Under the pieces are notes generated by a model, which did not search any database, was not told where the DNA came from, and was given only the letters and a program-made list of their open reading frames with translations. DNA of 64,000 nucleotides. Source: Candidatus Margulisiibacteriota bacterium (GTDB lineage: Bacteria; Margulisbacteria; WOR-1; O2-12-FULL-45-9). The position numbers and the translations under genes were made by a program. This document shows, piece by piece, positions 6,554 through 61,209 of the stretch; the stretch's first letter is position 1, and each line of letters starts with the position of its first letter. The stretch lies in the NCBI GenBank assembly GCA_041658745.1, contig JBAZZP010000003.1:83423-147422 (forward strand), written 5' to 3'.

Positions 6554-6576
6554 GATTTCTGATATACTAGCACCAA

Positions 6577-7281: not shown

Positions 7282-7303
7282 GATTTGTTATACTTAAATT
7301 AAT

Positions 7304-9203: not shown

Positions 9204-9214
9204 ATCAGTAAAGT

Positions 9215-9241
9215 ATCATGAATAAATAGCAATAATTTCAC
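9215..9241 (-). promoter_or_regulatory. ECF-sigma-like promoter box GTGAAAT-N16-TGAT, 11 nt before the beta-CASP MBL ATG
   Basis: The coding strand reads AGTGAAAT-tattgctatttattca-TGAT-actttactgat-ATG. There is no SD. Confidence 0.5.
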
Positions 9242-10468: not shown

Positions 10469-10495
10469 GCGAAATTTACTCTTCTATTTTTCGAT
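10469..10495 (+). promoter_or_regulatory. ECF-sigma-like promoter box (variant GCGAAAT-N16-CGAT) upstream of the NTase-fold gene
   Basis: Reads GCGAAAT-ttactcttctattttt-CGAT, then 20 nt containing a GGGAG SD before the ATG at 10516. Confidence 0.4.
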
Positions 10496-10515
10496 ATATG
10501 CTTGGGAGAAAGTTT

Positions 10516-11760
10516 ATGTCTAAAATTCGTTTAGCAAAATTTGATCAAACTTATTTACAAATTTGGCGCGGCCAAAACCGAGAAAAAGCAAGCGCAATTC
10601 GCGAAAAAGCTTTGACTAGCGCTAAAACTGGCACCTCGCTCCTACCAATAATTGCTGAACAGCATGATTTTATTGTGGGCGGGATAAATCAAGCATTAAA
10701 GGGAATAACTGAGCCATCAATTGATATTTTAGACGAGAAAGTAATGGTACTTGTTTCCGGCAGCATAGCTAGACTGAGCTGTGTCCCAGGGTCGGATATT
10801 GATCTTGATGTAACCTATCCAGATTCTGAGAGATCCCGTTTTCTCCCGCTAGAAAAGGCCCTTTTTCAGAATATTCGGTGGCTCTTTGAATTCCCCCAAG
10901 AAAGGATTGGCACCAATGTGCATTCACACATCAGCCATACGATTTTTAAAAGATTTCCGCCTAAAATGCCTATAATTGCGGGTCTCCGGAAATTTGGCTG
11001 GCGATCTGGGATTGCCCATATTATTCGGCGCAGTTTATTTCATTGCCGAGCTCTAGAAAAACGGTTACGGGGAAAAAGCGAATCATCGGCCTTTTTAGAG
11101 CGGGCTTATTTTCAGCTGTTTCAACTGGAGCGTAGACTGGCTTTTAGAGAATTTGGGACGATTTGCTCTGGCCTATTAGAACGCTACTCGGAGAAGCAGG
11201 CACTTTCCCTTTACAATTTTGACACCCCATATAATATTGAAAATATCTTTGGGCCATCAGAAAGATTTTTGGCTTACATAGAACAACGTGAGTCGGCCGT
11301 AAAAGCAATTTCACAAGGTCGATTACGCGGCATTGCCATTAACTTGCAAAGACAAGGCCATGCACATAGAAACATTGCATCATCATTACCGGCCTTAAAT
11401 GATTTATATGATTTTCATCGGCAAGTTAAACATGACATATTAATAAATTTCTATTATTTGCTCACCTTTGAAAAAATGGTTGGCATAGACCTATTAGGCG
11501 CCGACAGAGAAAAAGCTTTTGAAGCTTACCAGATGTTGTTAAGGATAAAGGCTGTAATGAATATTTTAAGCCAACCAAAGCCAACGCTTGCCCCTTGCGA
11601 TGAGAGAATGTTTCCCATTACCGACCCATTTCTGCAAAGTACTGCGGTTTTCTTCGGTTGTCATTCCAAGCTAGGGCTTTTTAATTTGATAACACAAGAA
11701 AGTGATACTCTTTTACAAATAATTGAGGCTGCCTATAATCGCTATTTGGCCATGTTATAA
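10516..11760 (+). CDS. nucleotidyltransferase-fold protein (Pol-beta superfamily, GlnD/GlnE-like NTase motif) with helical C-terminal domain
   Basis: VLVSGSIARLSCVPGSDIDLDV fits the G-S..x(n)..D-x-D NTase motif. I prefer the ATG at 10516, which has a GGGAG SD, over the track start at 10498. Confidence 0.45.
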   Translation: MSKIRLAKFDQTYLQIWRGQNREKASAIREKALTSAKTGTSLLPIIAEQHDFIVGGINQALKGITEPSIDILDEKVMVLVSGSIARLSCVPGSDIDLDVTYPDSERSRFLPLEKALFQNIRWLFEFPQERIGTNVHSHISHTIFKRFPPKMPIIAGLRKFGWRSGIAHIIRRSLFHCRALEKRLRGKSESSAFLERAYFQLFQLERRLAFREFGTICSGLLERYSEKQALSLYNFDTPYNIENIFGPSERFLAYIEQRESAVKAISQGRLRGIAINLQRQGHAHRNIASSLPALNDLYDFHRQVKHDILINFYYLLTFEKMVGIDLLGADREKAFEAYQMLLRIKAVMNILSQPKPTLAPCDERMFPITDPFLQSTAVFFGCHSKLGLFNLITQESDTLLQIIEAAYNRYLAML

Positions 11761-11768
11761 TTTAATAA

Positions 11769-18629: not shown

Positions 18630-20552
18630 TTAGCGGAAATCGGTGTCAAATTCTATCCCGTTTGCGTGATTCTCTTTGATATAAGTATAAATATCAATTA
18701 AGTTTTGTCGCAAAGCAGCGCGATCGGGAGTTTGACTATAAATAACTCTAAAAACACGGTTTAAAGATTCGCTCCTAAACGGTTCATTTTGTAAAGATTC
18801 TTCCATAGCTGAAGGATTAAGGGCAAATAAAGCAATGATTCTTCGGTAAGTGGCTGGAAATATTGTATAAGCCATCCCCGCGGATGCAATCCCCTCATCC
18901 GGTGCATCTTTTGGATGCCCTGCCCATGGATAATAATCCAGCAATACCGAGTCATCCAACAAATCCCACGTACCTAAACTTCGTCCTGCATAATAAAGAT
19001 TTAAATACTTTTCTTTCGTCGGGGTATAAGGGTGTTCACTGTATGGGGTATAACTGTAATCATAAAATCCGTGGCTTAGTTCGTGAGCAACAACCGTAGC
19101 CAAGACAAGCTCAAATTCCTCTGGCAAGGGAGAAAGTGGCACGCGACTGTCAATGCCTATTGCCGGACCCAATCCTACGCCACTCCCACCAAAAGGAGTT
19201 GGCATACAATCATCAATTTTAAAATAAATACCATTACGTTTGAATATCACTAATCTATCGGCCAAATTAGAAATAACCGTTGAATTAGCTAAGGGAATGG
19301 CACCTCCCAAAAAGATAAAGCTCTTTCCTTTTAAGTTAATGGTTTGTGAAGATTGCCCCTCAACGACATTAATATCCTGACATTCCTTCCCAACTGGAGG
19401 TTCCAAAGACACCCCAGCCAGGGATGATCTCCAGTTGTCACCTTGCGCCAATAAATCGATAAAACGCAGTGTTAGTTCTGTTGCCTTGGCCACAGCTTCC
19501 ATGTTTGGAACCATTATGTCTGCGGCAGTATGAGCCACAAGATTGCCAGGATAAGCACTACCGGCCGGTCCTGGTCCGCCATTTTCTGAAATCATTACTG
19601 ATGGAATACCCTTAAGATAAAATTGTCCCTGATCGCTGCTCATGGCAGCTAAAGGATCATTGATTAAATCGGTAACAACTCCAGCGCTATCGTTAACCTG
19701 ATGCAATATGTCCATGAGCCGCCCAGAAATTCCCTTTCCACCCAGAACCAGGCGATCGGTCAAGGGATTCCCTCCCAACGTATCCAGATTGATAACTCCC
19801 AAAATAGAAGGATCATTTTGCTCTAGCACAGCTGTATAAGCCTTGCTGCCAAGTTGGCCATATTCTTCACCATCAAAGGCAATCAGCTCAATGTCAAAGG
19901 GGAGCTGGTAATTCCGCAAATTCATTGCGATTTCAAGCAATGCGGCAACACCCGAAGCATTGTCATCCGCTCCGGGCGCAAATTCATTGTTTATCCCCTC
20001 TCCAATAGAATCAAAGTGAGCACAAATTATTAATCTTAGGCCTAAAGCTTCCCTCCCTGGAATTCTGGCAATCACATTGTGTAATTCACCAATATTTATA
20101 CCAGGGAGATCATACTTCAGAGACAGCCTGGCAGAATCGTCAATTGGAATCGTCACAGATTCTACTGTAGCCCTACCACCTAAGGCTCGATACAAAGTAT
20201 CATAAATAAATTGTCTTGCAGCTTCATTCCCTTCCGTAAAAATACGTCTTGGCATCAATGACAAAATACGAATGCTTTCTGCAATCCTCTGCCGATCAAC
20301 CTGGCAATGGACAACACTCCCGGCAACCCTTCCTCCCCCACAACCTCGCCGTAGCAATCTCCTTCTGGAAACGCCAACATTGTTGTCTCTTGGTTTTGGG
20401 TTTGCGTGTGATTGATTCATAGGTTGATTTTGTGTGACTAATTCTTGATTTGAATTATTAGTTTCCATGGTAGAAAAAGGGCTAATTGTCTTTAGGCAAC
20501 TGAAAAAGTTGGCACTATTGCTGTTTAAACAATATTGTATTTTATCTGTCAT
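18630..20552 (-). CDS. M28-family aminopeptidase domain fused to a C-terminal HExxH metalloprotease-like domain
   Basis: The M28 part shows ICAHFDS, GADDNASGVAALLEIA and FDGEEYGQLGS. The C-terminal third contains VAHELSHGF. The N-terminus is Q/N-rich and has no clear signal peptide. Confidence 0.65.
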   Translation of the reverse strand: MTDKIQYCLNSNSANFFSCLKTISPFSTMETNNSNQELVTQNQPMNQSHANPKPRDNNVGVSRRRLLRRGCGGGRVAGSVVHCQVDRQRIAESIRILSLMPRRIFTEGNEAARQFIYDTLYRALGGRATVESVTIPIDDSARLSLKYDLPGINIGELHNVIARIPGREALGLRLIICAHFDSIGEGINNEFAPGADDNASGVAALLEIAMNLRNYQLPFDIELIAFDGEEYGQLGSKAYTAVLEQNDPSILGVINLDTLGGNPLTDRLVLGGKGISGRLMDILHQVNDSAGVVTDLINDPLAAMSSDQGQFYLKGIPSVMISENGGPGPAGSAYPGNLVAHTAADIMVPNMEAVAKATELTLRFIDLLAQGDNWRSSLAGVSLEPPVGKECQDINVVEGQSSQTINLKGKSFIFLGGAIPLANSTVISNLADRLVIFKRNGIYFKIDDCMPTPFGGSGVGLGPAIGIDSRVPLSPLPEEFELVLATVVAHELSHGFYDYSYTPYSEHPYTPTKEKYLNLYYAGRSLGTWDLLDDSVLLDYYPWAGHPKDAPDEGIASAGMAYTIFPATYRRIIALFALNPSAMEESLQNEPFRSESLNRVFRVIYSQTPDRAALRQNLIDIYTYIKENHANGIEFDTDFR

Positions 20553-20679
20553 GTTTTCCTTATTTCCTTATAAACAAGTAATTAATTATTTTACTAGCTT
20601 GCCCCCATGCGTTGAATTAATCCCTTCCCTTAAAGGTTCGTGATTTTTTCACTTCCACCAACATCCTCAACAGTAATAT

Positions 20680-20706
20680 ATCGCTACTTCCTTCAGTATA
20701 TTTCAC
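20680..20706 (-). promoter_or_regulatory. ECF-sigma-like promoter box GTGAAAT-N16-CGAT, 127 nt upstream of the M28 peptidase ATG
   Basis: The coding strand reads TGTGAAAT-atactgaaggaagtag-CGAT. The leader ends with an AAGGAAA SD. Confidence 0.45.
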
Positions 20707-22529: not shown

Positions 22530-22787
22530 TTATTCCACCGTATATGGGACAAGCCCCATCTGCCTTGATTTTTTTACTATCGCTGACACCATCCGCTGAT
22601 GAAGAGCACAACATCCGCTCATCCGGCGAGGAGCAATTTTGCCGCGGTCAGTTACAAAGCGGCGTACAAAATTAACATCCTTATAATCTAATGTTTTTTT
22701 GTCGATACAAAACATGCACGGCTTCCTTTTCATCGGCTTCTTATACGTTTGCGGTTTACTTGGTTTTCTTCTTTCTCGATTACTCAT
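22530..22787 (-). CDS. rpsR: 30S ribosomal protein S18
   Basis: 85 aa. Motifs CMFC..IDYKDVNFVRRFVTDRGKIAPRRMSG.CA.HQR. Confidence 0.92.
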   Translation of the reverse strand: MSNRERRKPSKPQTYKKPMKRKPCMFCIDKKTLDYKDVNFVRRFVTDRGKIAPRRMSGCCALHQRMVSAIVKKSRQMGLVPYTVE

Positions 22788-22804
22788 CTATTTCTCCTTG
22801 ATAT

Positions 22805-25259: not shown

Positions 25260-25292
25260 ATTTTTAGTATAACACAGACCAGTGTCTTTGAA

Positions 25293-26597
25293 CTATGTCT
25301 GGCGAATCCCAGCACCCCAACGTGCAAGTGTCGCCGTCAGGCAGACATCTAGATTAGTATTACGGATCTCTCCCAAGCCTCTTCCTTGTAGACGGTTGGC
25401 AACACAACCCCCTTGGCATATTTCTATGACATCACAGGGTTGGCAAATGGATGACGGGTATTGCAAATGGTCTTCGATGACCCGGTTTTTAAAAATCTGC
25501 CCAGTTTTCGGGTCCCCCAAAATTAAGCCATCGGTTTTTTCTCCCACTAAGGCTAGACAAAAAACAAACTTTTCTTCTGGCAGGAGAAGGGTGTAAGACT
25601 GCGGAGAATCAAGCATAGGACAAGGTCGGCGCGAAGTAAGATAGGCATTATCCTCAAGTCCTAATTGATAGCGCCAGATCCCTTTGGAATAATAATTTGG
25701 TCCAATGGTCCCCATACTAAGCAGGATCTGCAACTTTTCCTTTGGCCAATTTTTCCGAGCTTCAATCACGGACAACAAAAAGCGATCCATGGCGTCTTCC
25801 GTGAGAGGGGAAACGCCCCCTTTAGCGTTTCCAAGCGGCCGCGTTAAACGCAAAACCACTGTTTCAACTCCCAACTCAACAGCCTCCCGCGCAACTTCTT
25901 GAATTCCTTCTAAATAATCCAAATAAACCTGACTAAATATTCCCACCGAAAATGGTCGCGGATTATGGCTGCGCGAAAACTCAACCATTTCCCCAATATT
26001 TGAAGAGACAGCAGCATGGCTGTTTCTCCCATAAGCTATTTGGTGAAGGGCAGCCGGCAGATGACTAATGCGTAAATGGCGAACCGAAGATTGAGCCAAA
26101 GCCTGCAAATTTTGCTGGGTCAGTCTTCTTTCCCCATTGGTAATGGCATAGGGATCCCCTGCCAAAGTTTTAAGACGCAGCACCTGTTCCAACAGGCGAT
26201 CATTTACATTTAATTCTTTTGGATAGGCGGTAGTTAGAAAGCCTTCAGCTTGCGCGGCACGGATTCTTGCTGAGATTAAATCTTCATCAATAACTGGGCT
26301 CTCTGGTCCTTCGGGTGTCCAAAAACAAAACTCACAGCGGCGATTGCAGGGAGTATTAAGTAGTAGATCGGCCATTGGCTTTACTGGACGCTGCAACAAC
26401 CGCTCTCCATAGCGCTTAATATTCGGCATATTTGTCGCCGCTCGTGCCCGTTGACTGGCCGAGAGGCCAAGGTAAGGAGCAATCAAAGAATACTCCGCCG
26501 GCCCCAAGGTTTTTCCAGCCACAACAATGTTTCCCGATTTACGTGGTAGTAAATGAACAACCATATTATTTTTTCTCCCAACCATTAAACTCGTCAT
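25293..26597 (-). CDS. radical SAM enzyme with C-terminal SPASM-like Cys cluster and ~70-aa N-terminal extension
   Basis: CNRRCEFC (Cx3Cx2C) lies at about residue 84. The C-terminus has CPMLD.., FCLAL.. and CQPCDVIEICQGGCVANR (CxxCx5Cx3C). Confidence 0.75.
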   Translation of the reverse strand: MTSLMVGRKNNMVVHLLPRKSGNIVVAGKTLGPAEYSLIAPYLGLSASQRARAATNMPNIKRYGERLLQRPVKPMADLLLNTPCNRRCEFCFWTPEGPESPVIDEDLISARIRAAQAEGFLTTAYPKELNVNDRLLEQVLRLKTLAGDPYAITNGERRLTQQNLQALAQSSVRHLRISHLPAALHQIAYGRNSHAAVSSNIGEMVEFSRSHNPRPFSVGIFSQVYLDYLEGIQEVAREAVELGVETVVLRLTRPLGNAKGGVSPLTEDAMDRFLLSVIEARKNWPKEKLQILLSMGTIGPNYYSKGIWRYQLGLEDNAYLTSRRPCPMLDSPQSYTLLLPEEKFVFCLALVGEKTDGLILGDPKTGQIFKNRVIEDHLQYPSSICQPCDVIEICQGGCVANRLQGRGLGEIRNTNLDVCLTATLARWGAGIRQT

Positions 26598-26604
26598 CTA
26601 GTCT

Positions 26605-26631
26605 ATCTGAGTAAATAAAAAATAATTTCAC
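26605..26631 (-). promoter_or_regulatory. ECF-sigma-like promoter box GTGAAAT-N16-AGAT, 7 nt before the radical-SAM ATG
   Basis: The coding strand reads AGTGAAAT-tattttttatttactc-AGAT-agactag-ATG. There is no SD. Confidence 0.55.
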
Positions 26632-26661
26632 TAAATAAATTAGGCAAAAGAAAAAATATTC

Positions 26662-26687
26662 TGAAATTATCCTAACTTCCTCTCGAG
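26662..26687 (+). promoter_or_regulatory. near-match to the same promoter box (TGAAAT-N16-CGAG), 8 nt before the MBL ATG
   Basis: Reads cTGAAAT-tatcctaacttcctct-CGAG-attaagtt-ATG. There is no SD. Confidence 0.35.
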
Positions 26688-26695
26688 ATTAAGTT

Positions 26696-27646
26696 ATGAT
26701 TTCGCGCATATCAAAACATGCAGCAAAACCTACACATCAAAAAAATGCTGCTCCAATGCGACCAGGCTTCGCTAAGCTCGAGAAGGTCGGCACCTTTCAA
26801 GAGTGGTTCGAGGTTTACAGGCTCACGCCGGATACATATGCAATTTATGAACCGTATCAATTCCAGGAAGCGATCTGCTATCTTGCTCTGGGCACATCGA
26901 AGGCACTGCTCATAGACACCGGTAACGGCATTGGCAACATTCGAGATGTTGCCTCCACATTAACAGGTTTGCCCATCTCAGTTGTCCTAACTCACGAGCA
27001 CGCGGATCACTACGGCGGCGCGCATTTATTTGAGCACGTTGCCGTTTACAATTTTCAGGCAGCGCTTAAGGAGCTGCGACAAGGGGTTCCGAACGCATCC
27101 GCATGCTGCTCCATCACTGGGAATAACTTATGGGGACCGCTTCCTAATGGGGTTGATCCCGCGACTTGGTCTGTGCTGCCGGTCAATCCCGATTTGCTGC
27201 TCGAAGAGGGCTCAATAGTTGATTTGGGTGGCCGTCAGCTTGAAGTGATCCACACGCCAGGGCACTCGGCTTCCGAAATCTGCCTGCTGGATAACAGCCG
27301 CCGTCTATTGTTCTCGGGAGATCATTTTTACCCCGGTCCGTTGTATTTACAATCGGCAACGGCCGACATCCTCAGCATCTTCGTGGAATCGAACAATAAA
27401 TTAGTACAACGTGTTAATGAGTACGACCATGTGCTTGGCGGTCATAACGAGCCGTGGATCGACGCCGCCGTAATTCCCCGTGTTAGCCAAGCGATGGCGA
27501 TTGTTCTCTGTGGTGGTGGCGCTTTTTCTGAAGATCAGGGAATCAGACGTTATTTCTTCGACGGGTTCGATATCCTGCTTCGCGCTGCGAGCATCAAGAG
27601 TTACATGGTAAAACATCTGCCTGTTAGTGAAAAAAAGATGGATTGA
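26696..27646 (+). CDS. MBL-fold metallo-hydrolase
   Basis: Motifs THEHADHYGG (HxHxDH), HTPGHS and FSGDH. Spot counts suggest it is GC-richer than most of the window. Confidence 0.8.
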   Translation: MISRISKHAAKPTHQKNAAPMRPGFAKLEKVGTFQEWFEVYRLTPDTYAIYEPYQFQEAICYLALGTSKALLIDTGNGIGNIRDVASTLTGLPISVVLTHEHADHYGGAHLFEHVAVYNFQAALKELRQGVPNASACCSITGNNLWGPLPNGVDPATWSVLPVNPDLLLEEGSIVDLGGRQLEVIHTPGHSASEICLLDNSRRLLFSGDHFYPGPLYLQSATADILSIFVESNNKLVQRVNEYDHVLGGHNEPWIDAAVIPRVSQAMAIVLCGGGAFSEDQGIRRYFFDGFDILLRAASIKSYMVKHLPVSEKKMD

Positions 27647-27692: not shown

Positions 27693-27719
27693 GTGAAATT
27701 TATTAGAAATATAGAAGAA
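27693..27719 (+). promoter_or_regulatory. near-match promoter box GTGAAAT-N16-AGAA upstream of the FGE-like gene
   Basis: The 13-mer gtgaaatttatta is identical to 28806-28818. It is followed by a 44-nt leader with a TAGGAG SD. Confidence 0.3.
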
Positions 27720-27763
27720 AACAAAGTGAAAGATACAACGCAGAATACTTAGGAGATTAGAAC

Positions 27764-28804
27764 ATGGTTAAAACCTCTGTTGCAGGAAATGTTGGCGGGG
27801 ACAGTTTGGTTAGAGCCCTGCTATGTTCTCAAGCTTCTATAAGAGGGGACCAAAAAAGAAGCCGAAGTTGTGGCATAAGGATATTTTCACAATACTTAGG
27901 GAGAAACTCCGCAAGACAAGAGGCATGGGTGAAAAACACCCCCCTTTCACCGGAAGTGGTTTTTGCTCGTGCTAGTTTAGATAGTGCTTGGCTAAAACAA
28001 GCTGGGCAATGGCTGGAAACCTCAACTGACCCAAAACAACGGGCGGCCATGTTAAAAAGACTTGGGGCTGAAAAGCTTGAACCAGAAAATCTTTACCCCC
28101 TTCCCGAAATTGAGTTACCCATGGTGCCCCACATTCCAACAGGGCCATTCACGATGGGCAGTCAGCAATTTGATGACGCTAAACCTTTGAGAGAAATAAT
28201 CCTTGATCCTTTTAGTATAAGTATTTTCCCAGTAACCAGAGCCCAATATTTGATAGGAATGCAGCAAGCAGGTTTAATCACACCGGAATATTGGAAGCAA
28301 ACAGACGGAGAATTGATTTGCCCTTCCCATCCGGTTACCGGTGTAACTTGGGAACAGGCCAACGCGTTTGCAGAGTGGCTTGGCCGAAGATTACCTACCG
28401 AAGCTGAATGGGAATTCTCCGCTAGAGGTTATGATGAAAAACTCTATCCATGGGGAAACATATTTGATCCTTCACGGGCGGCCTTTCACCAACGGGGAAC
28501 CAGCCCCGTTGATGCCTACCCAACCGGTGTATCTTGGAATGGGATTTTTGGACTAGCTGGTAATATTTGTGAGTGGTGCGCTGATTGGTATGCTTCATAT
28601 GACCCGTCCGCATTACACAACCCTCGCGGCCCAGAAGAAGGAAGCATGCGAGTTTTACGTGGTGGGTCACATTTCTATGATGAGCCCGAATTATTGCGTA
28701 GTGATCGTCGCAACAAGCATTATCCAAGCATCGTCGGCAATAGTTATGGTTTTCGCGTAGCGGAAGGGGGCATTGTTCCCCCAAATGGCTTAGTTAAAAA
28801 ATAG
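27764..28804 (+). CDS. FGE-sulfatase domain protein (SUMF1/EgtB/PvdO family) with ~115-aa N-terminal extension
   Basis: Motifs GPFTMGS, HPVTGVTWEQANAFAEWLGRRLPTEAEWEFSARG, GNICEWCADWY and RVLRGGSHF. Confidence 0.8.
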   Translation: MVKTSVAGNVGGDSLVRALLCSQASIRGDQKRSRSCGIRIFSQYLGRNSARQEAWVKNTPLSPEVVFARASLDSAWLKQAGQWLETSTDPKQRAAMLKRLGAEKLEPENLYPLPEIELPMVPHIPTGPFTMGSQQFDDAKPLREIILDPFSISIFPVTRAQYLIGMQQAGLITPEYWKQTDGELICPSHPVTGVTWEQANAFAEWLGRRLPTEAEWEFSARGYDEKLYPWGNIFDPSRAAFHQRGTSPVDAYPTGVSWNGIFGLAGNICEWCADWYASYDPSALHNPRGPEEGSMRVLRGGSHFYDEPELLRSDRRNKHYPSIVGNSYGFRVAEGGIVPPNGLVKK

Positions 28805-28805
28805 A

Positions 28806-28832
28806 GTGAAATTTATTAAGAGAGGGGCTGAT
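28806..28832 (+). promoter_or_regulatory. ECF-sigma-like promoter box GTGAAAT-N16-TGAT, 8 nt before the M20 peptidase ATG
   Basis: Reads AGTGAAAT-ttattaagagaggggc-TGAT-ataaaggc-ATG. Confidence 0.55.
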
Positions 28833-28840
28833 ATAAAGGC

Positions 28841-30463
28841 ATGAACAAAGTAACGACTCAAGGCACTGCCGCTCAAATCAGGCAGCTATCAGCATTAACT
28901 GCCCGGCTGGTAAAAACGGGGAGCATTAGTCCCTCTCAAGGAGAAAATAGGGTCGCTAAACTAATTGTTAGAACCATGCAACGCGGAGGATTTTCTATCG
29001 CTGATCCGCTAACAAGCGATGTCCTTCTATCCGCCAGCACCGGCTTAATTCCACTGCCCGACGGAAGGGCAAATGCCTTTGCCTTCCTGCCCGCCTTAGA
29101 AAGAACCGATAAAACATTATTACTATTTGGCCACATGGATACTGTTGGGATAGATGATTTTGGCCAGCTAAAAGGTGTGGCAAACGATCCCGTAAAATTA
29201 AGAAAGGCTCTCATAGAAGAAGGAAGCGAAGCTGAGGCCATTAAGGACTTACTAACTGGGAACTGGATGTGCGGACGTGGGTCATTGGATATGAAGAGCG
29301 GTCTCGCCATTGAAATGACAACCTTAATTAATCTTCGCAGTAATCCTTCCAATGGGAATATTCTTTTTATGGGAATGCCCGACGAAGAAAACGATTCGGC
29401 CGGTATGCTGGGCGCTGTCCCATTTTTAAAACATTTTGCCGAATTACACCAGCTCAACCTAATGGGAGCCATTAATGCCGACTATACTACCGAAAGATTT
29501 CCAGGAGATAGCAACCGCTATTTGTATTTGGGAACAGTTGGTAAACTTTTACCAACTTTTTTAGTCATTGGCAGTACAACCCACGTGGGAGAGATTTTTA
29601 ACGGGATCAACCCTTCATTAATCCTTGCCCAGCTAGCTGCTCAAATGGAAACTAATCCGGCCTTTTGCGATACAATGGAAGGAGAAACGACCCTTCCCCC
29701 CACTGCATTAAAGTTTTCCGACCTAAAAGCAGGTTATAATGTGCAAACTCCGCTCTCTGCCTGGGCATATTTTAATTTATTCACCCATTCAATGACTCCG
29801 GAAAACGCCATGCAGCATATTTTGTCTATCGCTCGGGAAGCAGCACATAGGTCCCAACAAATATTGCGGGCAAGAACCAGGGATTTTAATGTGCGGACTG
29901 GCAGCAACCATCCCGATACCCAAATTAACATTTCTGTTTTGCCTTTTGACGAATTAGCTACTGGGCTTACAATTGATTCTTCGGCTGCTGCAATAGCTAC
30001 CGATCCACGGGATAAAAGCCGACTAATTGTTGAAGATTTATGGAGAAGGTCGGGAAGATCGCTTGGTAGACATGAGGCGGTGATTATCCCATTTTTGTCT
30101 CCACCTTACTATCCACATGGACATGTTTCGAAGGAAGAATCGGCCGCTTCCTCTTTTATTTCAGCAGCAACAGCTAGTGCAAAACGGGCCGGATTAGCCG
30201 TCAGGAAATTTTATCCGTATATTTCGGATGCCAGCTTTCTGCGGGCGCCCATGACCGGAGCAGACATGACCAGTCTATTGCCTTTATGGGAAAAGGGCTA
30301 TCGTCTTCCCATCGAAGACATTCGTGCATTAAATTTACCCGTAATTAATTTAGGACCTTGGGGAAAGGGGGCGCATCAGAGAATCGAAAGAATTGAAACC
30401 AGTTATTCTTTTGGAAGGCTTCCACAAATTATGGAAGATGTTATCCGTAATACCTTTAGATAA
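28841..30463 (+). CDS. M20-family metallopeptidase/amidohydrolase, RocB-like (long form)
   Basis: 540 aa. Motifs LLLFGHMDTVGIDDFG, GRGSLDMKSG and MPDEENDSAGM. The size and N-terminal block resemble the arginine-utilisation protein RocB. Confidence 0.7.
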   Translation: MNKVTTQGTAAQIRQLSALTARLVKTGSISPSQGENRVAKLIVRTMQRGGFSIADPLTSDVLLSASTGLIPLPDGRANAFAFLPALERTDKTLLLFGHMDTVGIDDFGQLKGVANDPVKLRKALIEEGSEAEAIKDLLTGNWMCGRGSLDMKSGLAIEMTTLINLRSNPSNGNILFMGMPDEENDSAGMLGAVPFLKHFAELHQLNLMGAINADYTTERFPGDSNRYLYLGTVGKLLPTFLVIGSTTHVGEIFNGINPSLILAQLAAQMETNPAFCDTMEGETTLPPTALKFSDLKAGYNVQTPLSAWAYFNLFTHSMTPENAMQHILSIAREAAHRSQQILRARTRDFNVRTGSNHPDTQINISVLPFDELATGLTIDSSAAAIATDPRDKSRLIVEDLWRRSGRSLGRHEAVIIPFLSPPYYPHGHVSKEESAASSFISAATASAKRAGLAVRKFYPYISDASFLRAPMTGADMTSLLPLWEKGYRLPIEDIRALNLPVINLGPWGKGAHQRIERIETSYSFGRLPQIMEDVIRNTFR

Positions 30464-30484
30464 AAAAACAAGGAGGAAAAGAAA

Positions 30485-31171
30485 ATGGCAGTATTAAGTA
30501 TTGGTTCAATCCACGTGCAAAAATTATACAGAGGAATGAGGACTCCTGAAAGCACAATGAAAATTGGGGGGGAACGCTTGGCCCACATCCTAGGGGTTAG
30601 GCCGGGAACAGCTTCTTTCGGGAGAATTGCTTTCGGCAATCAAGAATTAGATCTCAGGGAAATAGTAAACTTGGCTGCTCCTGCCGACATAGCCGTAAAT
30701 GGCAGGGAAGAGATTGACGCGGCAAAAGCACAAGCAATTTTAGCTGCTAGAGTAACTGGCAACTGGGAAACGGCCAATGGATTGCTTGGAACTAATTTGC
30801 ACGCAAGCCGCACGATAAGAAGATCGCTAGCTTATACTCTTTTGGAAGAAGGAGTAGCAGCCTTTAACCGTTTAAGAGAATCCTTAAGTGAAGCAACTGT
30901 TAATCTGCGCGGCGTCGAAATGCCCGAGATTGACCTTTCTGGCGCTACCCTTTCTGGTGCAGAATTAGCGTTTGCCAATTTGTCTAGGACACGTTTCTCG
31001 AGTAAGACCAGATTAGACGGTGCAGATTTAACCGGCGCAAACCTAGCTGGGGCAGATCTATCAAATGCAGATTTGTCAACGGCGCTTGTTGCAGAGGCGA
31101 CCTATTCTAGCGCTACTCGATTTCCAGCAAATTTCGATCCTGCAAATCTTGGAATGATAAAAATAGGATAA
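30485..31171 (+). CDS. pentapeptide-repeat protein (repeats only in the C-terminal ~80 aa)
   Basis: LSGATLSGAELAFANLSRTRFSSKTRLDGADLTGANLAGADLSNADLS. AAGGAGG SD lies upstream. Confidence 0.8.
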   Translation: MAVLSIGSIHVQKLYRGMRTPESTMKIGGERLAHILGVRPGTASFGRIAFGNQELDLREIVNLAAPADIAVNGREEIDAAKAQAILAARVTGNWETANGLLGTNLHASRTIRRSLAYTLLEEGVAAFNRLRESLSEATVNLRGVEMPEIDLSGATLSGAELAFANLSRTRFSSKTRLDGADLTGANLAGADLSNADLSTALVAEATYSSATRFPANFDPANLGMIKIG

Positions 31172-31187
31172 TAAAGGAGGAAATAAT

Positions 31188-32447
31188 ATGACAACTTTAA
31201 TCGGGACAGCGCTTAGGAATTATTCTCATCTCAAAATGGACACAATTAGAGCCTCAATTCAAGAATCAGTTGGCTCATTAAGGTCAAGATTGAGAGAAAG
31301 ACATCGAGGGACATTGGTTCAACAGGCAACAGAGGTTGCCAGAAAGGGGGCAGCTCTCAGCATTTATTGCCCAATCAACGTAGCACTTGCCCACACCGCC
31401 GCACCAAGATTGGAAGCGGTCGCTAAACCGGACTCACAGTCAAGGATTTTGTCCAGAAGGCCAATGACAATTGTAACTGTTAACTCCGGTTTTTGTGCCG
31501 GAAAATCTACCGATCCCAACCTGCAAACCCCCAACATGGTTGTAAGCAGATTGCGGGAAATGCTTTTAACTTTAGGCGACCAATGGAAATCCATTGGTAA
31601 AAATTTAAAATGGGTGCATGCCCCTACCGTATTTTACCCAAGCAAACCGATTGAATTAGCAAGGGTGGATGATCGCAATCCCAATTCGTTTAAGTATATA
31701 CGAGAAGCTGTTCTAAATTACTACTTTTCTTATTCAACAACTATTAATGGGGTGCTAGAGAGAGGATTTTCTCCATTACTCGTCGGAGGAGATCATTCTT
31801 TGGCTTTTGCGAGCGTCTCTACCGTAAGCAACCACTATTTTAGAAAAACTGGAAAAACCGCCGGATTGGTTTGGGTTGATGCCCATGGAGATATAAACAC
31901 TAGAGCTACTTCGCCGTCAGGAAATTTCCATGGCGGACCAGTTGCTGCCCTGCTTGGGATATCCAACACAGTTATGGATCTTTTCATGGAAAAACCATTA
32001 AACCCCAGAAACATCGTATATATTGCCATTAGAGATTTGGATCCAGGAGAAATTGCAACTATTGCCCGTCTTGGCATAAAAGTTTTTAGCGCCAAGGACA
32101 TTGAAAAAGATGGATTGGAATCGGTAATGCAACAAGCCAGAGCCATTGCCGGCCAAGGAACCTCTGGTATTTGTGTTTCATTTGATATTGATGGAGTTGA
32201 AGGAACCCATGTCCCCGGAACAGGAACTCCGGTTAGTGTTGGAGAAAATATGGACAAGAGGGGCCTTACTCCTCAAGAAGCCAAAGATATGGCAACCATT
32301 TTCGGGAGCTGGAGGAACCTTATTTCTTTTGACATGGTAGAAGTAAATCCCGAAATTGATCAAAAACCGGGGTTTCCAACAGTCCAACTCGCCAGTGAAA
32401 TTCTTACAAACTTTATTGTCAGCCGTAACGACACTTCCATAACATAG
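31188..32447 (+). CDS. arginase/agmatinase/formiminoglutamase-family ureohydrolase with ~90-aa N-terminal extension
   Basis: Motifs VGGDHSLA, VWVDAHGDINT and SFDIDGVEGTHVPGTGTP, so the metal ligands are intact. AAGGAGG SD lies upstream. Confidence 0.8.
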   Translation: MTTLIGTALRNYSHLKMDTIRASIQESVGSLRSRLRERHRGTLVQQATEVARKGAALSIYCPINVALAHTAAPRLEAVAKPDSQSRILSRRPMTIVTVNSGFCAGKSTDPNLQTPNMVVSRLREMLLTLGDQWKSIGKNLKWVHAPTVFYPSKPIELARVDDRNPNSFKYIREAVLNYYFSYSTTINGVLERGFSPLLVGGDHSLAFASVSTVSNHYFRKTGKTAGLVWVDAHGDINTRATSPSGNFHGGPVAALLGISNTVMDLFMEKPLNPRNIVYIAIRDLDPGEIATIARLGIKVFSAKDIEKDGLESVMQQARAIAGQGTSGICVSFDIDGVEGTHVPGTGTPVSVGENMDKRGLTPQEAKDMATIFGSWRNLISFDMVEVNPEIDQKPGFPTVQLASEILTNFIVSRNDTSIT

Positions 32448-32484
32448 CAACAATTTGGCGAATAGTCCAAATAAGGGGGAAAAC

Positions 32485-34344
32485 ATGGCAATCGATAGAG
32501 AAATGGGCCTGCAGAGATTAAGATTTATTCTGCCCGGAAGGCATACACAGCCGATGCTGGCAACCCATCCTGCTCCAAGGACGGAAGGAGTTCCAACCAT
32601 TGCCGGCTTAGGCAGTCCTTTGCGGATTGCTACCCGTCCCCCTCTCTTTAAACCTTTATTGCAGAGAGAGTTTTTTGCAGCTTTAGCCACAGCTTTCCCT
32701 GCCTACCAATTAACCCCTGAAGTAGAAAAACAGCTAGGAGTTACTTATCCAAAACTAGCCGATCATGGCGATTATGCTATCCCCGTTTTTGCTCTGTCCA
32801 AAGCGATAAGACAAGCTCCTGCAACTATCGCCGAAAAAATTGCCTCCGAAATGCGCGCCAATCCGGACATTAACCGTTATTTCGATATTAATGTGATTAA
32901 TGGTTATATTAATTTCCGCTTTAGTGATGCTTTTTTGATGGCCTCTGCCACTTCCCTAGATTCAACTTTTGGGAATAACGATACTTTGGCGGGACAAACC
33001 ATTCAGGTTGAATGGGTCTCGGCTAATCCAACCGGACCGTTACACATTGGCCATGCTCGCTGGGCGGTGATGGGAGATTTACTTTGCAAAATGCTCGAAG
33101 CCTGTGGCGCAACTGTGCAACGCGAATTTTATGTTAATGACGCCGGCGCCCAGATTGAGCGCTTTAGGAAATCCGTCCAAGCCGCCAAAGAAGGAAGCGC
33201 CATCCCGGAAGATGGCTATCATGGACAATATATCTATGAAATTGCCAAACAAGGGGGAGACCCTGTTTTGCTTATGATGGAATATCAACGTCTTTCACTG
33301 GAAGCCATCGGTGTCCATTTTGATCGTTGGTTTTCGGAAAAAACCCTCTACATTCCCGATGCAGAAGGCAGAACGATGGTAGATAAGGGCTTAGCCATTT
33401 TAGAAGCTGCCCACTTAACCTACCGCGCCGCCGAAGGAGAACAGGTTGACGAAGAAATAAACGCTCCCGTAAACAGAAAAGGACAAGCCCAAACCGGAGA
33501 AGCCTTATGGTTTCGTTCTACCCAATTTGGTGACACTAAGGACAGAGTACTCATCAAGGCAAATGGCGCTGCAACCTACTTTTTAGGAGACATTGCTTAT
33601 CACTTAGATAAAGTTGGGCGTGGCTTTGATTTCTTGTTCAATATTTTAGGGGCCGACCACGGCGGTTATGTCGCCCGTCTTTCAGCTGCGATCCAGGCTT
33701 TATCTGACGGAAAACAAGGCCACCACATAATCATTGGCCAATTAGTTAAATTACTAAAGGAAGACCCCGATTCACACCAACTAGTAGAGGCCCGCATGTC
33801 AAAACGCACCGGCGAAATGGTCTCTTTGGGAGATATAACCGAAGCTATTGGGGCAGATGCGGTACGCGTTTTTATGGGGAGCGCCGGATTTGATACCGCC
33901 GTAAATATCAATTTGGATGTTGCTACCAAAAAGTCTTCTGATAATCCAGTATTTTACATCCAGTACGCCCACGCCCGCATTGCCCAGTTATTAAAAAAAG
34001 CACAGGAACAAGGCATCACTCCAGCCACAACCATTCCTGCCGATTATAGACTAAATACCGAAGAGAGAGCGCTATTAGCAGCTATCTACAAAATACCGGA
34101 TGAAATATTAGAGGCTGCTGATGCTCAGGCCACCCAGAGGATCCTTCAATTTACGATGGATCTGGCAACCCGCTTCCATGCTTTTTATCATGCGCACCAT
34201 ATTGTTAACGAACATGATTTGCCTACCAGCCAAGCAAGATTGGCTCTCTGCCAGGCAACTGCGCAAGTTCTTAAAAACGTTTTTGCTCTTATGGGGATTT
34301 CTGCACCAGAAGAAATGGCAGCCAGAGAAGAAGCACCAGTTTAA
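32485..34344 (+). CDS. argS: arginyl-tRNA synthetase with ~55-aa N-terminal extension
   Basis: Motifs SANPTGPLHIGHAR (HIGH) and MSKRTG (KMSK-like), plus the DALR anticodon-binding region. The ATG at 32485 has a strong AAGGGGGA SD. The track start at 32455 is also possible. Confidence 0.88.
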   Translation: MAIDREMGLQRLRFILPGRHTQPMLATHPAPRTEGVPTIAGLGSPLRIATRPPLFKPLLQREFFAALATAFPAYQLTPEVEKQLGVTYPKLADHGDYAIPVFALSKAIRQAPATIAEKIASEMRANPDINRYFDINVINGYINFRFSDAFLMASATSLDSTFGNNDTLAGQTIQVEWVSANPTGPLHIGHARWAVMGDLLCKMLEACGATVQREFYVNDAGAQIERFRKSVQAAKEGSAIPEDGYHGQYIYEIAKQGGDPVLLMMEYQRLSLEAIGVHFDRWFSEKTLYIPDAEGRTMVDKGLAILEAAHLTYRAAEGEQVDEEINAPVNRKGQAQTGEALWFRSTQFGDTKDRVLIKANGAATYFLGDIAYHLDKVGRGFDFLFNILGADHGGYVARLSAAIQALSDGKQGHHIIIGQLVKLLKEDPDSHQLVEARMSKRTGEMVSLGDITEAIGADAVRVFMGSAGFDTAVNINLDVATKKSSDNPVFYIQYAHARIAQLLKKAQEQGITPATTIPADYRLNTEERALLAAIYKIPDEILEAADAQATQRILQFTMDLATRFHAFYHAHHIVNEHDLPTSQARLALCQATAQVLKNVFALMGISAPEEMAAREEAPV

Positions 34345-37154: not shown

Positions 37155-37253
37155 TGTAGGGGATCTCGACACTGCTGCTGTCTAAAAATCGTCGTTTTTG
37201 TTTTACTTAGCCTTGACCAGAGCTGATTAGGCTTGGCAATACAATTGCTAGGG

Positions 37254-37448
37254 ATTGAATATCTGGTGATCAGGAAATCTGGGAAGGGAGATCGGGGAAT
37301 CAGGATATCTGGATAGGGAAATCAAGACAGTAGAAAATTATAGATTTGAATAATTATTATGAAAATACGGTCTTAAAGGTTTATTTCCCCCTAATTTCCA
37401 GATGCCCGGATTCCCCTTTCCTGATTCCCCGATCCCCAGATACCCAAT
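37254..37448. repeat. 195-bp imperfect inverted repeat built from ATCNGGRN octamer arrays (MITE-like or cruciform-prone element)
   Basis: The left arm 37254-37322 and the reverse complement of the right arm 37383-37448 both read attgRRt-atctggNg-atcNggRa-..-agggRR-..-gggaaat. A 60-nt AT-rich spacer separates them. Confidence 0.7.
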
Positions 37449-37455
37449 AGCATAT

Positions 37456-37485
37456 TTGACAGCTCAACCCATGCTCTGTTACCAT
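37456..37485 (+). promoter_or_regulatory. sigma-70-like promoter candidate for topA
   Basis: TTGACA (37456-37461), then 17-18 nt, then TTACCAT. This is about 25 nt upstream of the ATG at 37509. Confidence 0.35.
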
Positions 37486-37508
37486 CTTATCAGAAGCGCA
37501 AATAATTT

Positions 37509-43348: not shown

Positions 43349-43349
43349 T

Positions 43350-43550
43350 TTAAAAACCTCCCGGCAGCATGAGTTTTACTCGAGCCCTATCAGAATCAGA
43401 CACCATGCCTGCTTTTCCAAGGCCCCTCTTTGATTTTGATCGCTTCGTGGCTAAAAGATGTCTCATGCCCGAATGATGACGCTTTACTTTGCCGGAACTT
43501 GTAACATGAAATCGTTTTGCGGCTGCTTTTCTGGTCTTTATTTTTGGCAT
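43350..43550 (-). CDS. rpmI: 50S ribosomal protein L35
   Basis: MPKIKTRKAAAKRF..SGKVKR. Confidence 0.92.
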   Translation of the reverse strand: MPKIKTRKAAAKRFHVTSSGKVKRHHSGMRHLLATKRSKSKRGLGKAGMVSDSDRARVKLMLPGGF

Positions 43551-43559
43551 TTTTTTACC

Positions 43560-45818: not shown

Positions 45819-45874
45819 ATAAAATCAGTATAGCACGGGGTGAAAAGCACTGTAAAGAAGGGAAAATGGGACAA

Positions 45875-59963: not shown

Positions 59964-60007
59964 TTGTTCTCCTTCCTATAATGAAACACGAAATCGGACA
60001 TAATATT

Positions 60008-60034
60008 ATCTGCATAAAAATAAAATAATTTCAG
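60008..60034 (-). promoter_or_regulatory. ECF-sigma-like promoter box (cTGAAAT-N16-AGAT) upstream of the hypothetical gene pair
   Basis: The coding strand reads ACTGAAAT-tattttatttttatgc-AGAT. It is 44 nt from the ATG at 59963. Confidence 0.45.
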
Positions 60035-61144: not shown

Positions 61145-61152
61145 ATTTAATA

Positions 61153-61179
61153 ATCGTTCTGTCTCATAGTAAATTTCAC
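61153..61179 (-). promoter_or_regulatory. ECF-sigma-like promoter box GTGAAAT-N16-CGAT, 8 nt before the GT2 ATG
   Basis: The coding strand reads TGTGAAAT-ttactatgagacagaa-CGAT-tattaaat-ATG. There is no SD. Confidence 0.5.
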
Positions 61180-61209
61180 AATTTAGCCAAAAAGTTATAT
61201 AATATTTTT

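What the first reader, a model, noticed from the sequence alone, without database searches (positions are those of the whole stretch)
26598..26695. Shared ECF-sigma-like promoter GTGAAAT-N16-nGAT on all island transcription units, mostly leaderless
I read each upstream region on its coding strand. rSAM: AGTGAAAT-tattttttatttactc-AGAT-7nt-ATG (26631->26605). M20 operon: AGTGAAAT-ttattaagagaggggc-TGAT-8nt-ATG (28806-28832). MBL: cTGAAAT-tatcctaacttcctct-CGAG-8nt-ATG (26662-26687; one mismatch). FGE-like: GTGAAAT-N16-AGAA (27693-27719; one mismatch). The FGE-like site shares an exact 13-mer, gtgaaatttatta, with the M20 site. The 16-nt spacing is invariant. The distance from the GAT element to the ATG (7-8 nt) would place the transcription start at or next to the start codon, and these genes have no SD. 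The architecture resembles ECF-type promoters, for example B. subtilis sigma-W TGAAAC-N16-CGTA. It differs from the TTGACA/TATACT promoters seen before housekeeping genes in this window. This is direct sequence evidence that the island is a co-regulated unit under a dedicated regulator or sigma factor.
Basis: seen in the sequence. Interest (0 to 1): 0.7.

Follow-up and report, generated by a model that had tools for sequence, protein, structure and literature searches.

The report
Alternative-sigma promoter class in Margulisbacteria
The shared upstream motif is a real, conserved promoter type, most likely read by an alternative sigma factor of an uncultured Margulisbacteria genome, but it serves genes scattered across the genome, not just this "island".

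Summary
The motif is far from chance. Exact TGAAAT-N17-GAT occurs 6 times in 4.7 kb of intergenic DNA against 0.09 expected, and once in 58.7 kb of coding DNA.

The motif is not specific to the island. A matrix scan finds nine sites in the window, at 25-41 bits with the next best at 10 bits, and five of them lie outside the island. All nine sit upstream of a gene in sense orientation.

The genome is a Candidatus Margulisiibacteriota MAG. The motif is conserved upstream of homologues of the radical-SAM gene (43-74% identity) and of operons carrying homologues of the RocB-like M20 gene (46-53%) in other Margulisbacteria. It is about 60-fold enriched in those loci over unrelated genomes.

A 22-site alignment gives [G/C]TGAAATT(w)(w)tt-N-(C)GATA(w)-N4-Y-R. 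The third block looks like a transcription start 9 nt after GAT.

The geometry equals both the sigma-28 consensus (TAAAGTTT-N11-GCCGATAA) and the ECF sigma-W consensus (TGAAAC-N16-CGTA). In relatives the -10 block reads GTCGATA or TTCGATA, which is closer to sigma-28. Sequence alone cannot settle which sigma reads it.

Leaderless starts are predicted for three genes (26696, 28841, 61144). They are not supported for FGE and are doubtful for the radical-SAM gene. This is a new variant of a known kind.

The parts
26604..26631 (-). Promoter motif GTGAAAT-N16-AGATA for the rSAM/SPASM gene (25293-26597; probable true start 26564). Predicted +1 is at 26597/26596.
   Evidence: 26 bits. The motif is conserved before rSAM homologues in L082, L084 and L086. 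N-termini were compared.
26661..26688 (+). Promoter motif CTGAAAT-N16-CGAGA for the MBL-fold gene 26696-27646. Predicted +1 is 26696, the A of the ATG (leaderless).
   Evidence: (27.9 bits). A back-to-back divergent arrangement is also present in L082.
27693..27720 (+). Promoter motif GTGAAAT-N16-AGAAA for the FGE-sulfatase-like gene 27764-28804. Predicted +1 is 27728, giving a 36-nt leader with an AGGAG SD.
   Evidence: (28.4 bits).
28806..28833 (+). Promoter motif GTGAAAT-N16-TGATA for the operon RocB-like M20 (28841-30463), pentapeptide (30485-31171), arginase family (31188-32447) and ArgRS (32455-34344). Predicted +1 is 28841, the A of the ATG (leaderless).
   Evidence: (40.6 bits). Motif-driven operons carrying RocB homologues occur in L088 and L089.
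9214..9241 (-). Same motif outside the island, before the MBL-fold/beta-CASP-like gene 8067-9203. Predicted +1 is 9206 (3-nt UTR).
10469..10496 (+). Same motif (GCGAAAT variant) before the unknown ORF 10498-11760, whose probable start is 10516 after a GGGAG SD. Predicted +1 is 10504.
   Evidence: (26.9 bits; this site was not in the training set).
20679..20706 (-). Same motif before the M28 peptidase gene 18630-20552. Predicted +1 is 20671 (119-nt leader).
60007..60034 (-). Same motif before the hypothetical genes 59295-59963 and 58615-59298. Predicted +1 is 59999 (36-nt leader with an AGGAAGGAG SD).
61152..61179 (-). Same motif before the GT2 glycosyltransferase gene 60047-61144. Predicted +1 is 61144, the A of the ATG (leaderless).

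Best explanation
The motif is the recognition sequence of one alternative sigma factor of the sigma-70 family. That sigma is conserved in Candidatus Margulisiibacteriota.

The proposed reading of the three blocks is as follows:
- Sigma domain 4 reads [G/C]TGAAATT plus a T-rich tract at about -34.
- Sigma domains 2 and 3 read (C)GATA(w), which starts exactly 17 nt after TGAAAT.
- Transcription starts at a purine preceded by a pyrimidine, 9 nt after GAT.

The holoenzyme drives a dispersed regulon of accessory genes. Members include the rSAM gene, two MBL-fold hydrolases, an FGE-like protein, a RocB-like/arginase-family/ArgRS operon, an M28 peptidase, a GT2 glycosyltransferase and several unknown genes. 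The 'island' is only one cluster of that regulon.

Where the start codon sits at the predicted +1, the mRNA is leaderless. That is a general habit of this genome, not a property of this promoter class.

The most likely reader is a group-3, sigma-28-like factor with an altered -35 specificity (my estimate about 0.45). An ECF-type factor is the main alternative (about 0.25).

Shown here: the motif, its statistics, its position and orientation, its conservation, and its difference from housekeeping promoters. Inferred: that a sigma factor rather than an activator reads it, which sigma group that is, the transcription start, and leaderless translation.
For: Enrichment:
- Exact motif: 7 in the window against 1.3 expected.
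- Intergenic only: 6 against 0.092 expected.
- The excess is specific to spacer 17.
- The matrix scan is bimodal: nine sites at 25-41 bits, next best 10.3.

Position and orientation:
- All nine sites are upstream of a gene in sense orientation.
- All five sites in co-directional intergenic regions (10470, 20705, 27694, 28807, 60033) point at the downstream gene.

Out-of-sample test:
- A matrix built from window sites only finds 9 hits of at least 16 bits in 99 kb of Margulisbacteria loci.
- It finds 2 hits in 1.37 Mb of unrelated control loci.

Phylogenetic footprint:
- The motif is present before rSAM homologues at 74%, 47% and 43% identity, in genomes of 42-54% GC.
- It is present before operons containing RocB homologues at 53% and 46% identity.
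- The flanking and spacer sequence in these loci has diverged.

Third block:
- The position 8 nt after GAT is a pyrimidine in 20 of 22 sites, and the next position is a purine in 20 of 22. This is the signature of a fixed transcription start.

Divergent regions:
- Each direction carries its own complete two-block motif, in the window and in L082.

Not a housekeeping promoter:
- The first base of the -10 hexamer is G in 22 of 22 sites.
- The -7 T is not conserved.
- No sigma-70-type site was found in the island intergenic regions.
- Housekeeping genes here show TGnTATAAT instead.

Sigma-28 likeness:
- The distance from AAA to GAT is 21 nt, as in TAAAGTTT-n11-GCCGATAA (PMC2859248) and in the P. 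aeruginosa fliC promoter (-36)TCTAAAG(-30)/(-15)GCCGATAA(-8) (PMC12784957).
- In L088 and L089 the -10 block is TTCGATA[T/A] or GTCGATA[T/A].
- The -7 position is not conserved in sigma-28 promoters either (PMC12784957).
Against: - No sigma gene lies in the window or in any fetched locus. The reader of the motif is therefore unidentified.
- The position equivalent to the T of sigma-28's TAAA is G in 22 of 22 sites. In E. coli, mutating that T cuts activity about 10-fold (PMC2859248).
- None of the target genes is flagellar or chemotactic.
- In the window genome itself the -10 block is only nGATA.
- The site density, about one per 7-10 kb, is high for a sigma-28 or ECF regulon. The sampled loci are biased towards regulon members, though.
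- No transcription start data exist.
Confidence: 0.72

Rival explanations
1. An ECF (group 4) sigma factor reads the motif. Two versions are possible: a sigma dedicated to the island, or one with a wider regulon.
For: - The geometry is identical to sigma-W TGAAAC-N16-CGTA.
- The -35 block matches TGAAAC at 5 of 6 positions.
- It is followed by a T-rich tract, like the B. subtilis ECF element tGAAACnTTTt (PMC5758882).
- CGAT is one base away from the sigma-X -10 element CGAC.
Against: - The ECF hallmark AAC is AAT in 22 of 22 sites, and CGT is never present.
- No sigma/anti-sigma pair lies next to any site in the window or in the relatives.
- The island-dedicated version is contradicted by five sites outside the island and by the spread of the motif across Margulisbacteria.
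- The site density is high for an ECF regulon.
Confidence: 0.25
2. GTGAAATT is the binding site of a transcription activator that overlaps the -35 region (class II). The primary sigma factor uses GATAnn as a weak -10 element.
For: - GTGAAA-N18-GATAAT can be read as a degenerate TTGACA-N18-TATAAT.
- The GTGAAATT block is more strongly conserved than ordinary -35 hexamers.
Against: - The -10 block lacks T at -12 in 22 of 22 sites and lacks a conserved T at -7. Housekeeping promoters of the same genome show strong TGnTATAAT.
- In L088 and L089 the conserved -10 block extends upstream as (G)TCGATA, which is not a primary-sigma feature.
- The site has no dyad or direct-repeat symmetry.
- Divergent regions carry two complete oriented motifs, not one shared site.
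Confidence: 0.1
3. The motif is a chance resemblance among AT-rich intergenic sequences, or a dispersed repeat element.
For: - The intergenic regions are AT-rich.
- The FGE and M20 sites share a 13-mer.
Against: - 6 observed against 0.092 expected in intergenic-only dinucleotide shuffles.
- The excess is specific to one spacer length.
- The motif is conserved in orthologous positions across genomes.
- It is about 60-fold enriched over control loci.
- Flanking sequences are not similar, so it is not a repeat element.
Confidence: 0.01

Closest known systems
Sigma-28 (FliA/SigD/WhiG, group 3) promoters: TAAAGTTT-N11-GCCGATAA
   Same: - Two blocks with the same geometry: AAA to GAT is 21 nt.
- A GATA(A/T) core in the -10 block.
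- C before GAT in 14 of 22 sites, and GTCGATA/TTCGATA in relatives.
- The -7 position is not conserved.
- The start lies about 9 nt after GAT.
- Non-flagellar regulons are known for family members such as WhiG and Chlamydia sigma-28.
   Different: - The base at the T of TAAA is invariably G (TGAAAT).
- The GCC extension is weak in the window genome.
- The targets are amino-acid catabolism, hydrolase and rSAM genes, not flagellar genes.
- Site density appears much higher.
- No FliA/FlgM pair was seen.
ECF (group 4) promoters, e.g. B. subtilis sigma-W TGAAAC-N16-CGTA and sigma-X TGTAAC-N17-CGAC
   Same: - The spacing is identical.
- The -35 block matches at 5 of 6 positions.
- A T-tract follows the -35 block directly (tGAAACnTTTt).
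- The -10 block is short and begins with (C)G.
   Different: - AAT replaces the AAC hallmark in every site.
- GAT(A) replaces CGT(C/A).
- No adjacent autoregulated sigma/anti-sigma operon was found.
- The regulon is dispersed and large.
Leaderless mRNAs (start codon at the transcription start), as in Actinobacteria and Deinococcus
   Same: - For three motif genes the A of the ATG is at the predicted +1 and no SD is present.
- Several housekeeping genes have TATAAT 6-9 nt before the ATG.
   Different: - This is only predicted. No start-site or translation data exist.
- It is not specific to this promoter class.

Membership tests
Sigma-28-type promoter | -35 element TAAA(G) | tested here: not met
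   AAA is present in 22 of 22 sites, but the preceding base is G in 22 of 22 (TGAAAT), not T. In E. coli a change at that T reduces activity about 10-fold (PMC2859248).
Sigma-28-type promoter | -10 element GCCGATAA | tested here: inconclusive
   GAT is present in 18 of 22 sites and A follows in 20 of 22. C precedes GAT in 14 of 22. L089 reads GTCGATA[T/A], matching 7 of 8 positions. Window sites read only nGATA.
Sigma-28-type promoter | Fixed spacing (11 nt between octamers, so AAA to GAT is 21 nt) | tested here: met
   The spacing is invariant across all 22 sites and equals the published geometry (PMC2859248, PMC12784957).
Sigma-28-type promoter | Targets are flagellar, chemotaxis or late developmental genes | tested here: not met
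   The targets are MBL-fold, M28, rSAM, FGE-like, RocB-like, arginase-family, ArgRS, GT2 and unknown genes.
Sigma-28-type promoter | The genome encodes a FliA-family sigma (and FlgM) | not testable with these tools
   Only 64 kb of the 222-kb contig was available. No sigma gene lies in the window or the fetched loci. Attempts to extend the window failed.
ECF (group 4) promoter | -35 element containing AAC | tested here: not met
   The element reads AAT in 22 of 22 sites.
ECF (group 4) promoter | -10 element CGT(C/A) | tested here: not met
   The element reads (C)GAT(A). CGT is never present.
ECF (group 4) promoter | 16-17 nt spacer and a T-tract next to the -35 element | tested here: met
   The spacing is TGAAAT-N16-nGAT. 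T follows TGAAAT in 21 of 22 sites and the next positions are T-rich (PMC5758882).
ECF (group 4) promoter | An autoregulated sigma/anti-sigma operon carrying the same promoter | tested here: inconclusive
   None was found in 64 kb plus about 99 kb of relatives (Pfam and gene tables). The rest of the genome was not seen.
Primary sigma-70/sigma-A promoter | TTGACA-N17-TATAAT with A at -11 and T at -7 | tested here: not met
   The consensus scan finds none in the island intergenic regions. The first hexamer base is G in 22 of 22 sites and the -7 T is not conserved.
Leaderless mRNA | Transcription starts at the A of the start codon, with no SD | not testable with these tools
   Predicted for 26696, 28841 and 61144 from the Y-R block. 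The M20 N-terminus is supported by homologues. Confirmation needs 5'-end mapping.

The most novel reading that the evidence does not exclude
A sigma-28-derived (group 3) sigma factor in Margulisbacteria has changed its -35 specificity from TAAA to TGAAAT. It has been repurposed from motility control to a large non-flagellar regulon that serves perhaps a quarter of transcription units. The regulon includes basic-amino-acid catabolism (RocB-like, arginase-family and saccharopine-dehydrogenase-like genes), Arg/Lys tRNA synthetases and a phylum-restricted radical-SAM enzyme. Part of it is expressed as leaderless mRNAs, and part carries terminator-type leader attenuators.
Probability: 0.25. Interest if true: 0.55.

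Novelty: new variant of a known kind. Interest (0 to 1): 0.4.

Why it matters
Margulisbacteria are uncultured relatives of Cyanobacteria. I found nothing in the searchable literature about their promoters or sigma regulons.

A well-defined three-block promoter model (-35, -10 and start site) has several uses:
- Transcription units, start codons and a regulon can be predicted directly from MAGs.
- A candidate sigma can be sought by looking for autoregulation.
- The model provides parts for heterologous expression of their gene clusters.

The result also corrects the idea that the rSAM/MBL/FGE/M20 cluster is a self-contained, separately regulated island.

Tried and rejected
- The genome-contig scan with the rSAM protein found no relative.
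- The scan with YchF gave only distant genomes. The best was a Margulisiibacteriota MAG at 66% identity. The rest served as negative controls.
- Four look-ups meant to extend the window by 10 kb on each side failed, although the proteins are in the collection. No whole-genome scan or sigma inventory was therefore possible.
- Rfam found nothing in the window and only a tRNA in the relatives. The leaders had no credible match at E<1.
- Palindromic or transcription-factor readings (CRP, ARG box, Fur-like) were considered. They were dropped because symmetry appears in only a few sites.
- L090, a 44%-identical M20 homologue, is archaeal and has no motif.
- Motif-driven unknown proteins were inspected as possible hidden sigma or anti-sigma factors. 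None resembles one, and none has a homologue in the window.
- Literature searches for Margulisbacteria sigma factors or flagella, and for the motif itself, found nothing relevant.

Full report
**Observation**

- rSAM, minus strand: AGTGAAAT-tattttttatttactc-AGAT-agactag-ATG, with the ATG at 26597.
- M20: AGTGAAAT-ttattaagagaggggc-TGAT-ataaaggc-ATG, with the ATG at 28841.
- MBL: cTGAAAT-N16-CGAG-attaagtt-ATG, with the ATG at 26696.
- FGE-like: GTGAAAT-N16-AGAA at 27693-27719.
- The FGE and M20 sites share the 13-mer GTGAAATTTATTA.

**Is it more than chance?**

Exact TGAAAT-N17-GAT occurs 7 times in the window against 1.3 expected, and 0 of 100 shuffles reach 7. The intergenic DNA is AT-rich, so I repeated the test on intergenic DNA only. 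There are 6 sites in 4.66 kb against 0.092 expected, and the maximum over 5000 dinucleotide shuffles is 2. The 58.7 kb of coding DNA holds one site. The excess is specific to spacer 17, which gives 7 hits, while each spacer from 12 to 23 gives 0-4. In 1.35 Mb of unrelated genomes the pattern occurs at the chance rate of about 1.3 per 64 kb.

**It is not an island feature**

The exact hits outside the island are these:
- 9215-9240(-), 11 nt before the ATG of an MBL-fold gene (8067-9203)
- 20680-20705(-), before an M28 peptidase gene (18630-20552)
- 60008-60033(-), before two hypothetical genes (59295-59963 and 58615-59298)
- 61153-61178(-), 8 nt before the ATG of a GT2 glycosyltransferase gene (60047-61144)

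A position weight matrix scan of the window is sharply bimodal. Nine sites score 25-41 bits and the next best scores 10.3. The ninth site, GCGAAAT-N16-CGATA at 10470(+), was not in the training set. It precedes the unknown ORF 10498-11760.

All nine sites are upstream of a gene in sense orientation. The five that lie in co-directional intergenic regions all point at the downstream gene.

Pfam and NCBIfam annotation of the window shows ordinary housekeeping genes without the motif. Examples are ychF, ribosomal proteins, thrS, infC, pyrH, frr, uppS, dxr, topA, mutL, gidA and lpxD. No sigma or anti-sigma gene is present.

**Organism and conservation**

The rSAM protein is identical to a protein of a Candidatus Margulisiibacteriota MAG (locus tag WC890_03265, contig of 221,995 bp). 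It has only six other relatives among 5.8 billion proteins, all apparently from Margulisbacteria.

The motif precedes the rSAM homologue in every locus recovered:
- L082 (74% identity): GTGAAAT-N16-TGATA lies about 45 nt before the gene. A second complete motif on the other strand points at the divergent gene.
- L086 (47% identity): site at 4446.
- L084/L085 (43% identity, 54% GC): site at 8637, before a saccharopine-dehydrogenase-like/rSAM operon. The true start of that operon is 8685.

The M20 protein is RocB-like. Loci that carry its Margulisbacteria homologues also hold the motif:
- L088 (53% identity): four sites. The one at 9207 heads the operon that contains the RocB homologue.
- L089 (46% identity): two sites. 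The one at 7667 heads an aminotransferase/RocB/DDAH-like/ArgRS/AlaDh_PNT operon.

A matrix trained only on the eight window sites then known finds 9 hits of at least 16 bits in 99 kb of Margulisbacteria loci. It finds 2 hits in 1.37 Mb of the 76 unrelated control loci, which is roughly 60-fold enrichment. Spacer and flanking sequence have diverged while the blocks are kept. The element is therefore functional, lineage-wide and lineage-specific.

**Anatomy**

The 22-site alignment gives this consensus: an A-rich upstream stretch, then [G/C]TGAAATT(w)(w)tt, then N, then (t)C-GATA(w), then N4, then Y-R.
- GAAAT is invariant in all 22 sites, and the first T of TGAAAT is present in 21 of 22.
- The T after TGAAAT is present in 21 of 22.
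- The base before TGAAAT is G or C in 20 of 22.
- GAT is present in 18 of 22, and A follows it in 20 of 22.
- C precedes GAT in 14 of 22.

The position 8 nt after GAT is a pyrimidine in 20 of 22 sites. The next position is a purine in 20 of 22. A pyrimidine followed by an initiating purine at a fixed distance is what a transcription start looks like. This favours direct reading of all three blocks by RNA polymerase holoenzyme. Each direction of a divergent region carries its own complete oriented motif, and there is no dyad symmetry. Both points argue against a shared transcription-factor site.

**Relation to housekeeping promoters**

Housekeeping genes of the window show TGnTATAAT/TATACT, sometimes with a TTGACA- or GTGACA-like -35 element. 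The consensus scan for sigma-70-type promoters finds none in the island intergenic regions and no enrichment overall. In the motif class the first base of the -10 hexamer is G in 22 of 22 sites and the -7 T is not conserved. The primary sigma is therefore an unlikely reader.

**Which sigma?**

Geometry does not decide.
- The sigma-28 consensus is TAAAGTTT-n11-GCCGATAA (PMC2859248).
- The P. aeruginosa fliC promoter reads (-36)TCTAAAG(-30)/(-15)GCCGATAA(-8) (PMC12784957).
- The B. subtilis sigma-W consensus is TGAAAC-N16-CGTA (PMC5758882).
- All three place AAA 21 nt before the G of the -10 core, exactly as here.

For sigma-28:
- The GATA(A/T) core is present.
- The -10 block reads TTCGATA[T/A] in L088 and GTCGATA[T/A] in L089, up to 7 of 8 matches.
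- The -7 position is not conserved in sigma-28 promoters either (PMC12784957).
- Against it, the T of TAAA is G in every site, and no target is flagellar.

For ECF:
- TGAAAT matches TGAAAC at 5 of 6 positions.
- It is followed by a T-rich tract, like tGAAACnTTTt (PMC5758882).
- Against it, the AAC and CGT hallmarks are absent in all 22 sites, and no sigma/anti-sigma operon lies nearby.

My estimates are about 0.45 for a group-3 sigma-28-like factor, 0.25 for an ECF-type factor, and 0.1 for an activator working with the primary sigma. The remainder covers other readers, such as another sigma class or a variant read by the primary or a group-2 sigma. I found no description of this motif in the searchable literature.

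**Leaderless claim**

With +1 placed at the conserved purine, the predicted start is the A of the ATG for three genes: MBL 26696, RocB-like M20 28841 and GT2 61144. It lies 3 nt before the ATG of 8067-9203.

The M20 start is the only candidate start codon I could find, and its N-terminus aligns with homologues.

The rSAM case is doubtful:
- All six homologues align to the third ATG (26564), which follows a GGGAGA SD.
- The automatic gene caller behind the Logan contig and the NCBI MAG annotation both give the 423-aa form (alignment).
- Orthologous loci have leaders of about 45 nt with an SD.

FGE has a predicted 36-nt leader with an AGGAG SD. The other sites have leaders of 12-119 nt.

Leaderless layout is not special to this class. 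These genes have TATAAT/TATACT 6-9 nt before the ATG and no SD: ychF, thrS, miaA, gcvT (true start 61210), 6577-7281 and 7304-7807.

**What the regulon looks like**

Conserved members are the rSAM gene and the RocB-type operon. In different genomes that operon travels with arginase-family, DDAH-like, class-III aminotransferase, saccharopine-dehydrogenase/AlaDh_PNT and ArgRS or LysRS-like genes. This suggests basic-amino-acid catabolism. Other members (MBL-fold, M28, GT2, unknown proteins) are lineage-specific and have no counterpart between genomes. These genes are native to the phylum. They do not form a recently acquired island.

**Verdict**

There is a distinct promoter class, most likely read by an alternative sigma factor, and it serves a dispersed Margulisbacteria-wide regulon and not a dedicated island. 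The ECF label is not established, and 'mostly leaderless' is overstated. This is a new variant of a known kind and of moderate interest.

Noticed in passing
window 25260-25276(-), 45819-45836(-), 11750-11768(+), 61198-61212(+), 6555-6576(+), 7285-7303(+): Many housekeeping genes have an extended -10 element (TGnTATAAT/TATACT) only 6-9 nt before the ATG and no Shine-Dalgarno sequence. Examples are ychF, thrS, miaA, gcvT, an acyltransferase gene and an aconitase-C-like gene. Leaderless mRNAs appear to be common in this Margulisbacteria genome.
   Followed up: partly
L089 4779-4811 and 7746-7787 (+); L082 415-455 (-): In relatives, the leaders downstream of the motif contain strong intrinsic-terminator hairpins with U-tracts before the SD (z = -5.2, -3.9 and -3.3). 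The two L089 leaders share CAAGAAGCCA and begin with tiny ORFs rich in basic residues (MKRH*, MRDSFKAFKKLE*). These may be attenuators of Arg/Lys-catabolic operons. There is no Rfam match.
   Followed up: partly
window 25293-26597(-); L082, L084, L086: The rSAM/SPASM-like protein (CX3CX2C motif at residues 84-91) has only 7 members among 5.8 billion proteins. Those that carry a source name are annotated as Margulisbacteria. In L084 and L086 it lies next to a class-II (Lys/Asp/Asn-type) tRNA synthetase gene and an AlaDh_PNT gene, and in L084 also a saccharopine-dehydrogenase-like gene. In the window, the nearby RocB-like operon includes an ArgRS gene.
   Followed up: partly
window 28841-34344(+): The operon runs RocB-like M20, pentapeptide-repeat protein, arginase-family protein, then a bona fide ArgRS (TIGR00456, 329 bits). 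An apparently housekeeping tRNA synthetase sits at the end of an operon driven by the alternative promoter. L089 has the same RocB-to-ArgRS linkage.
   Followed up: partly
window 61126-62286(+): The longest ORF for gcvT starts at a TTG (61126) and overlaps the GT2 promoter. The conserved N-terminus ([24 protein letters not shown]) starts at the ATG at 61210, directly after TATAAT-N6.
   Followed up: yes
window 10498-11760(+): The ORF's first ATG (10498) lies upstream of the predicted transcription start (10504). The likely start is the ATG at 10516, after a GGGAG SD. The 420-aa protein has no Pfam family.
   Followed up: partly
window 37155-37508, 22553-22804, 43349-43559: Three unusually long intergenic regions (354, 252 and 211 nt) lie before topA, between rplI and the next gene, and between rplT and infC. 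The last probably holds rpmI. No Rfam family matches any of them.
   Followed up: no
L057 (Candidatus Marinamargulisbacteria, 15.3 kb): There is no motif hit in the only locus from the marine branch of the phylum. The promoter class may be limited to part of Margulisbacteria, but the sample is too small to say.
   Followed up: no
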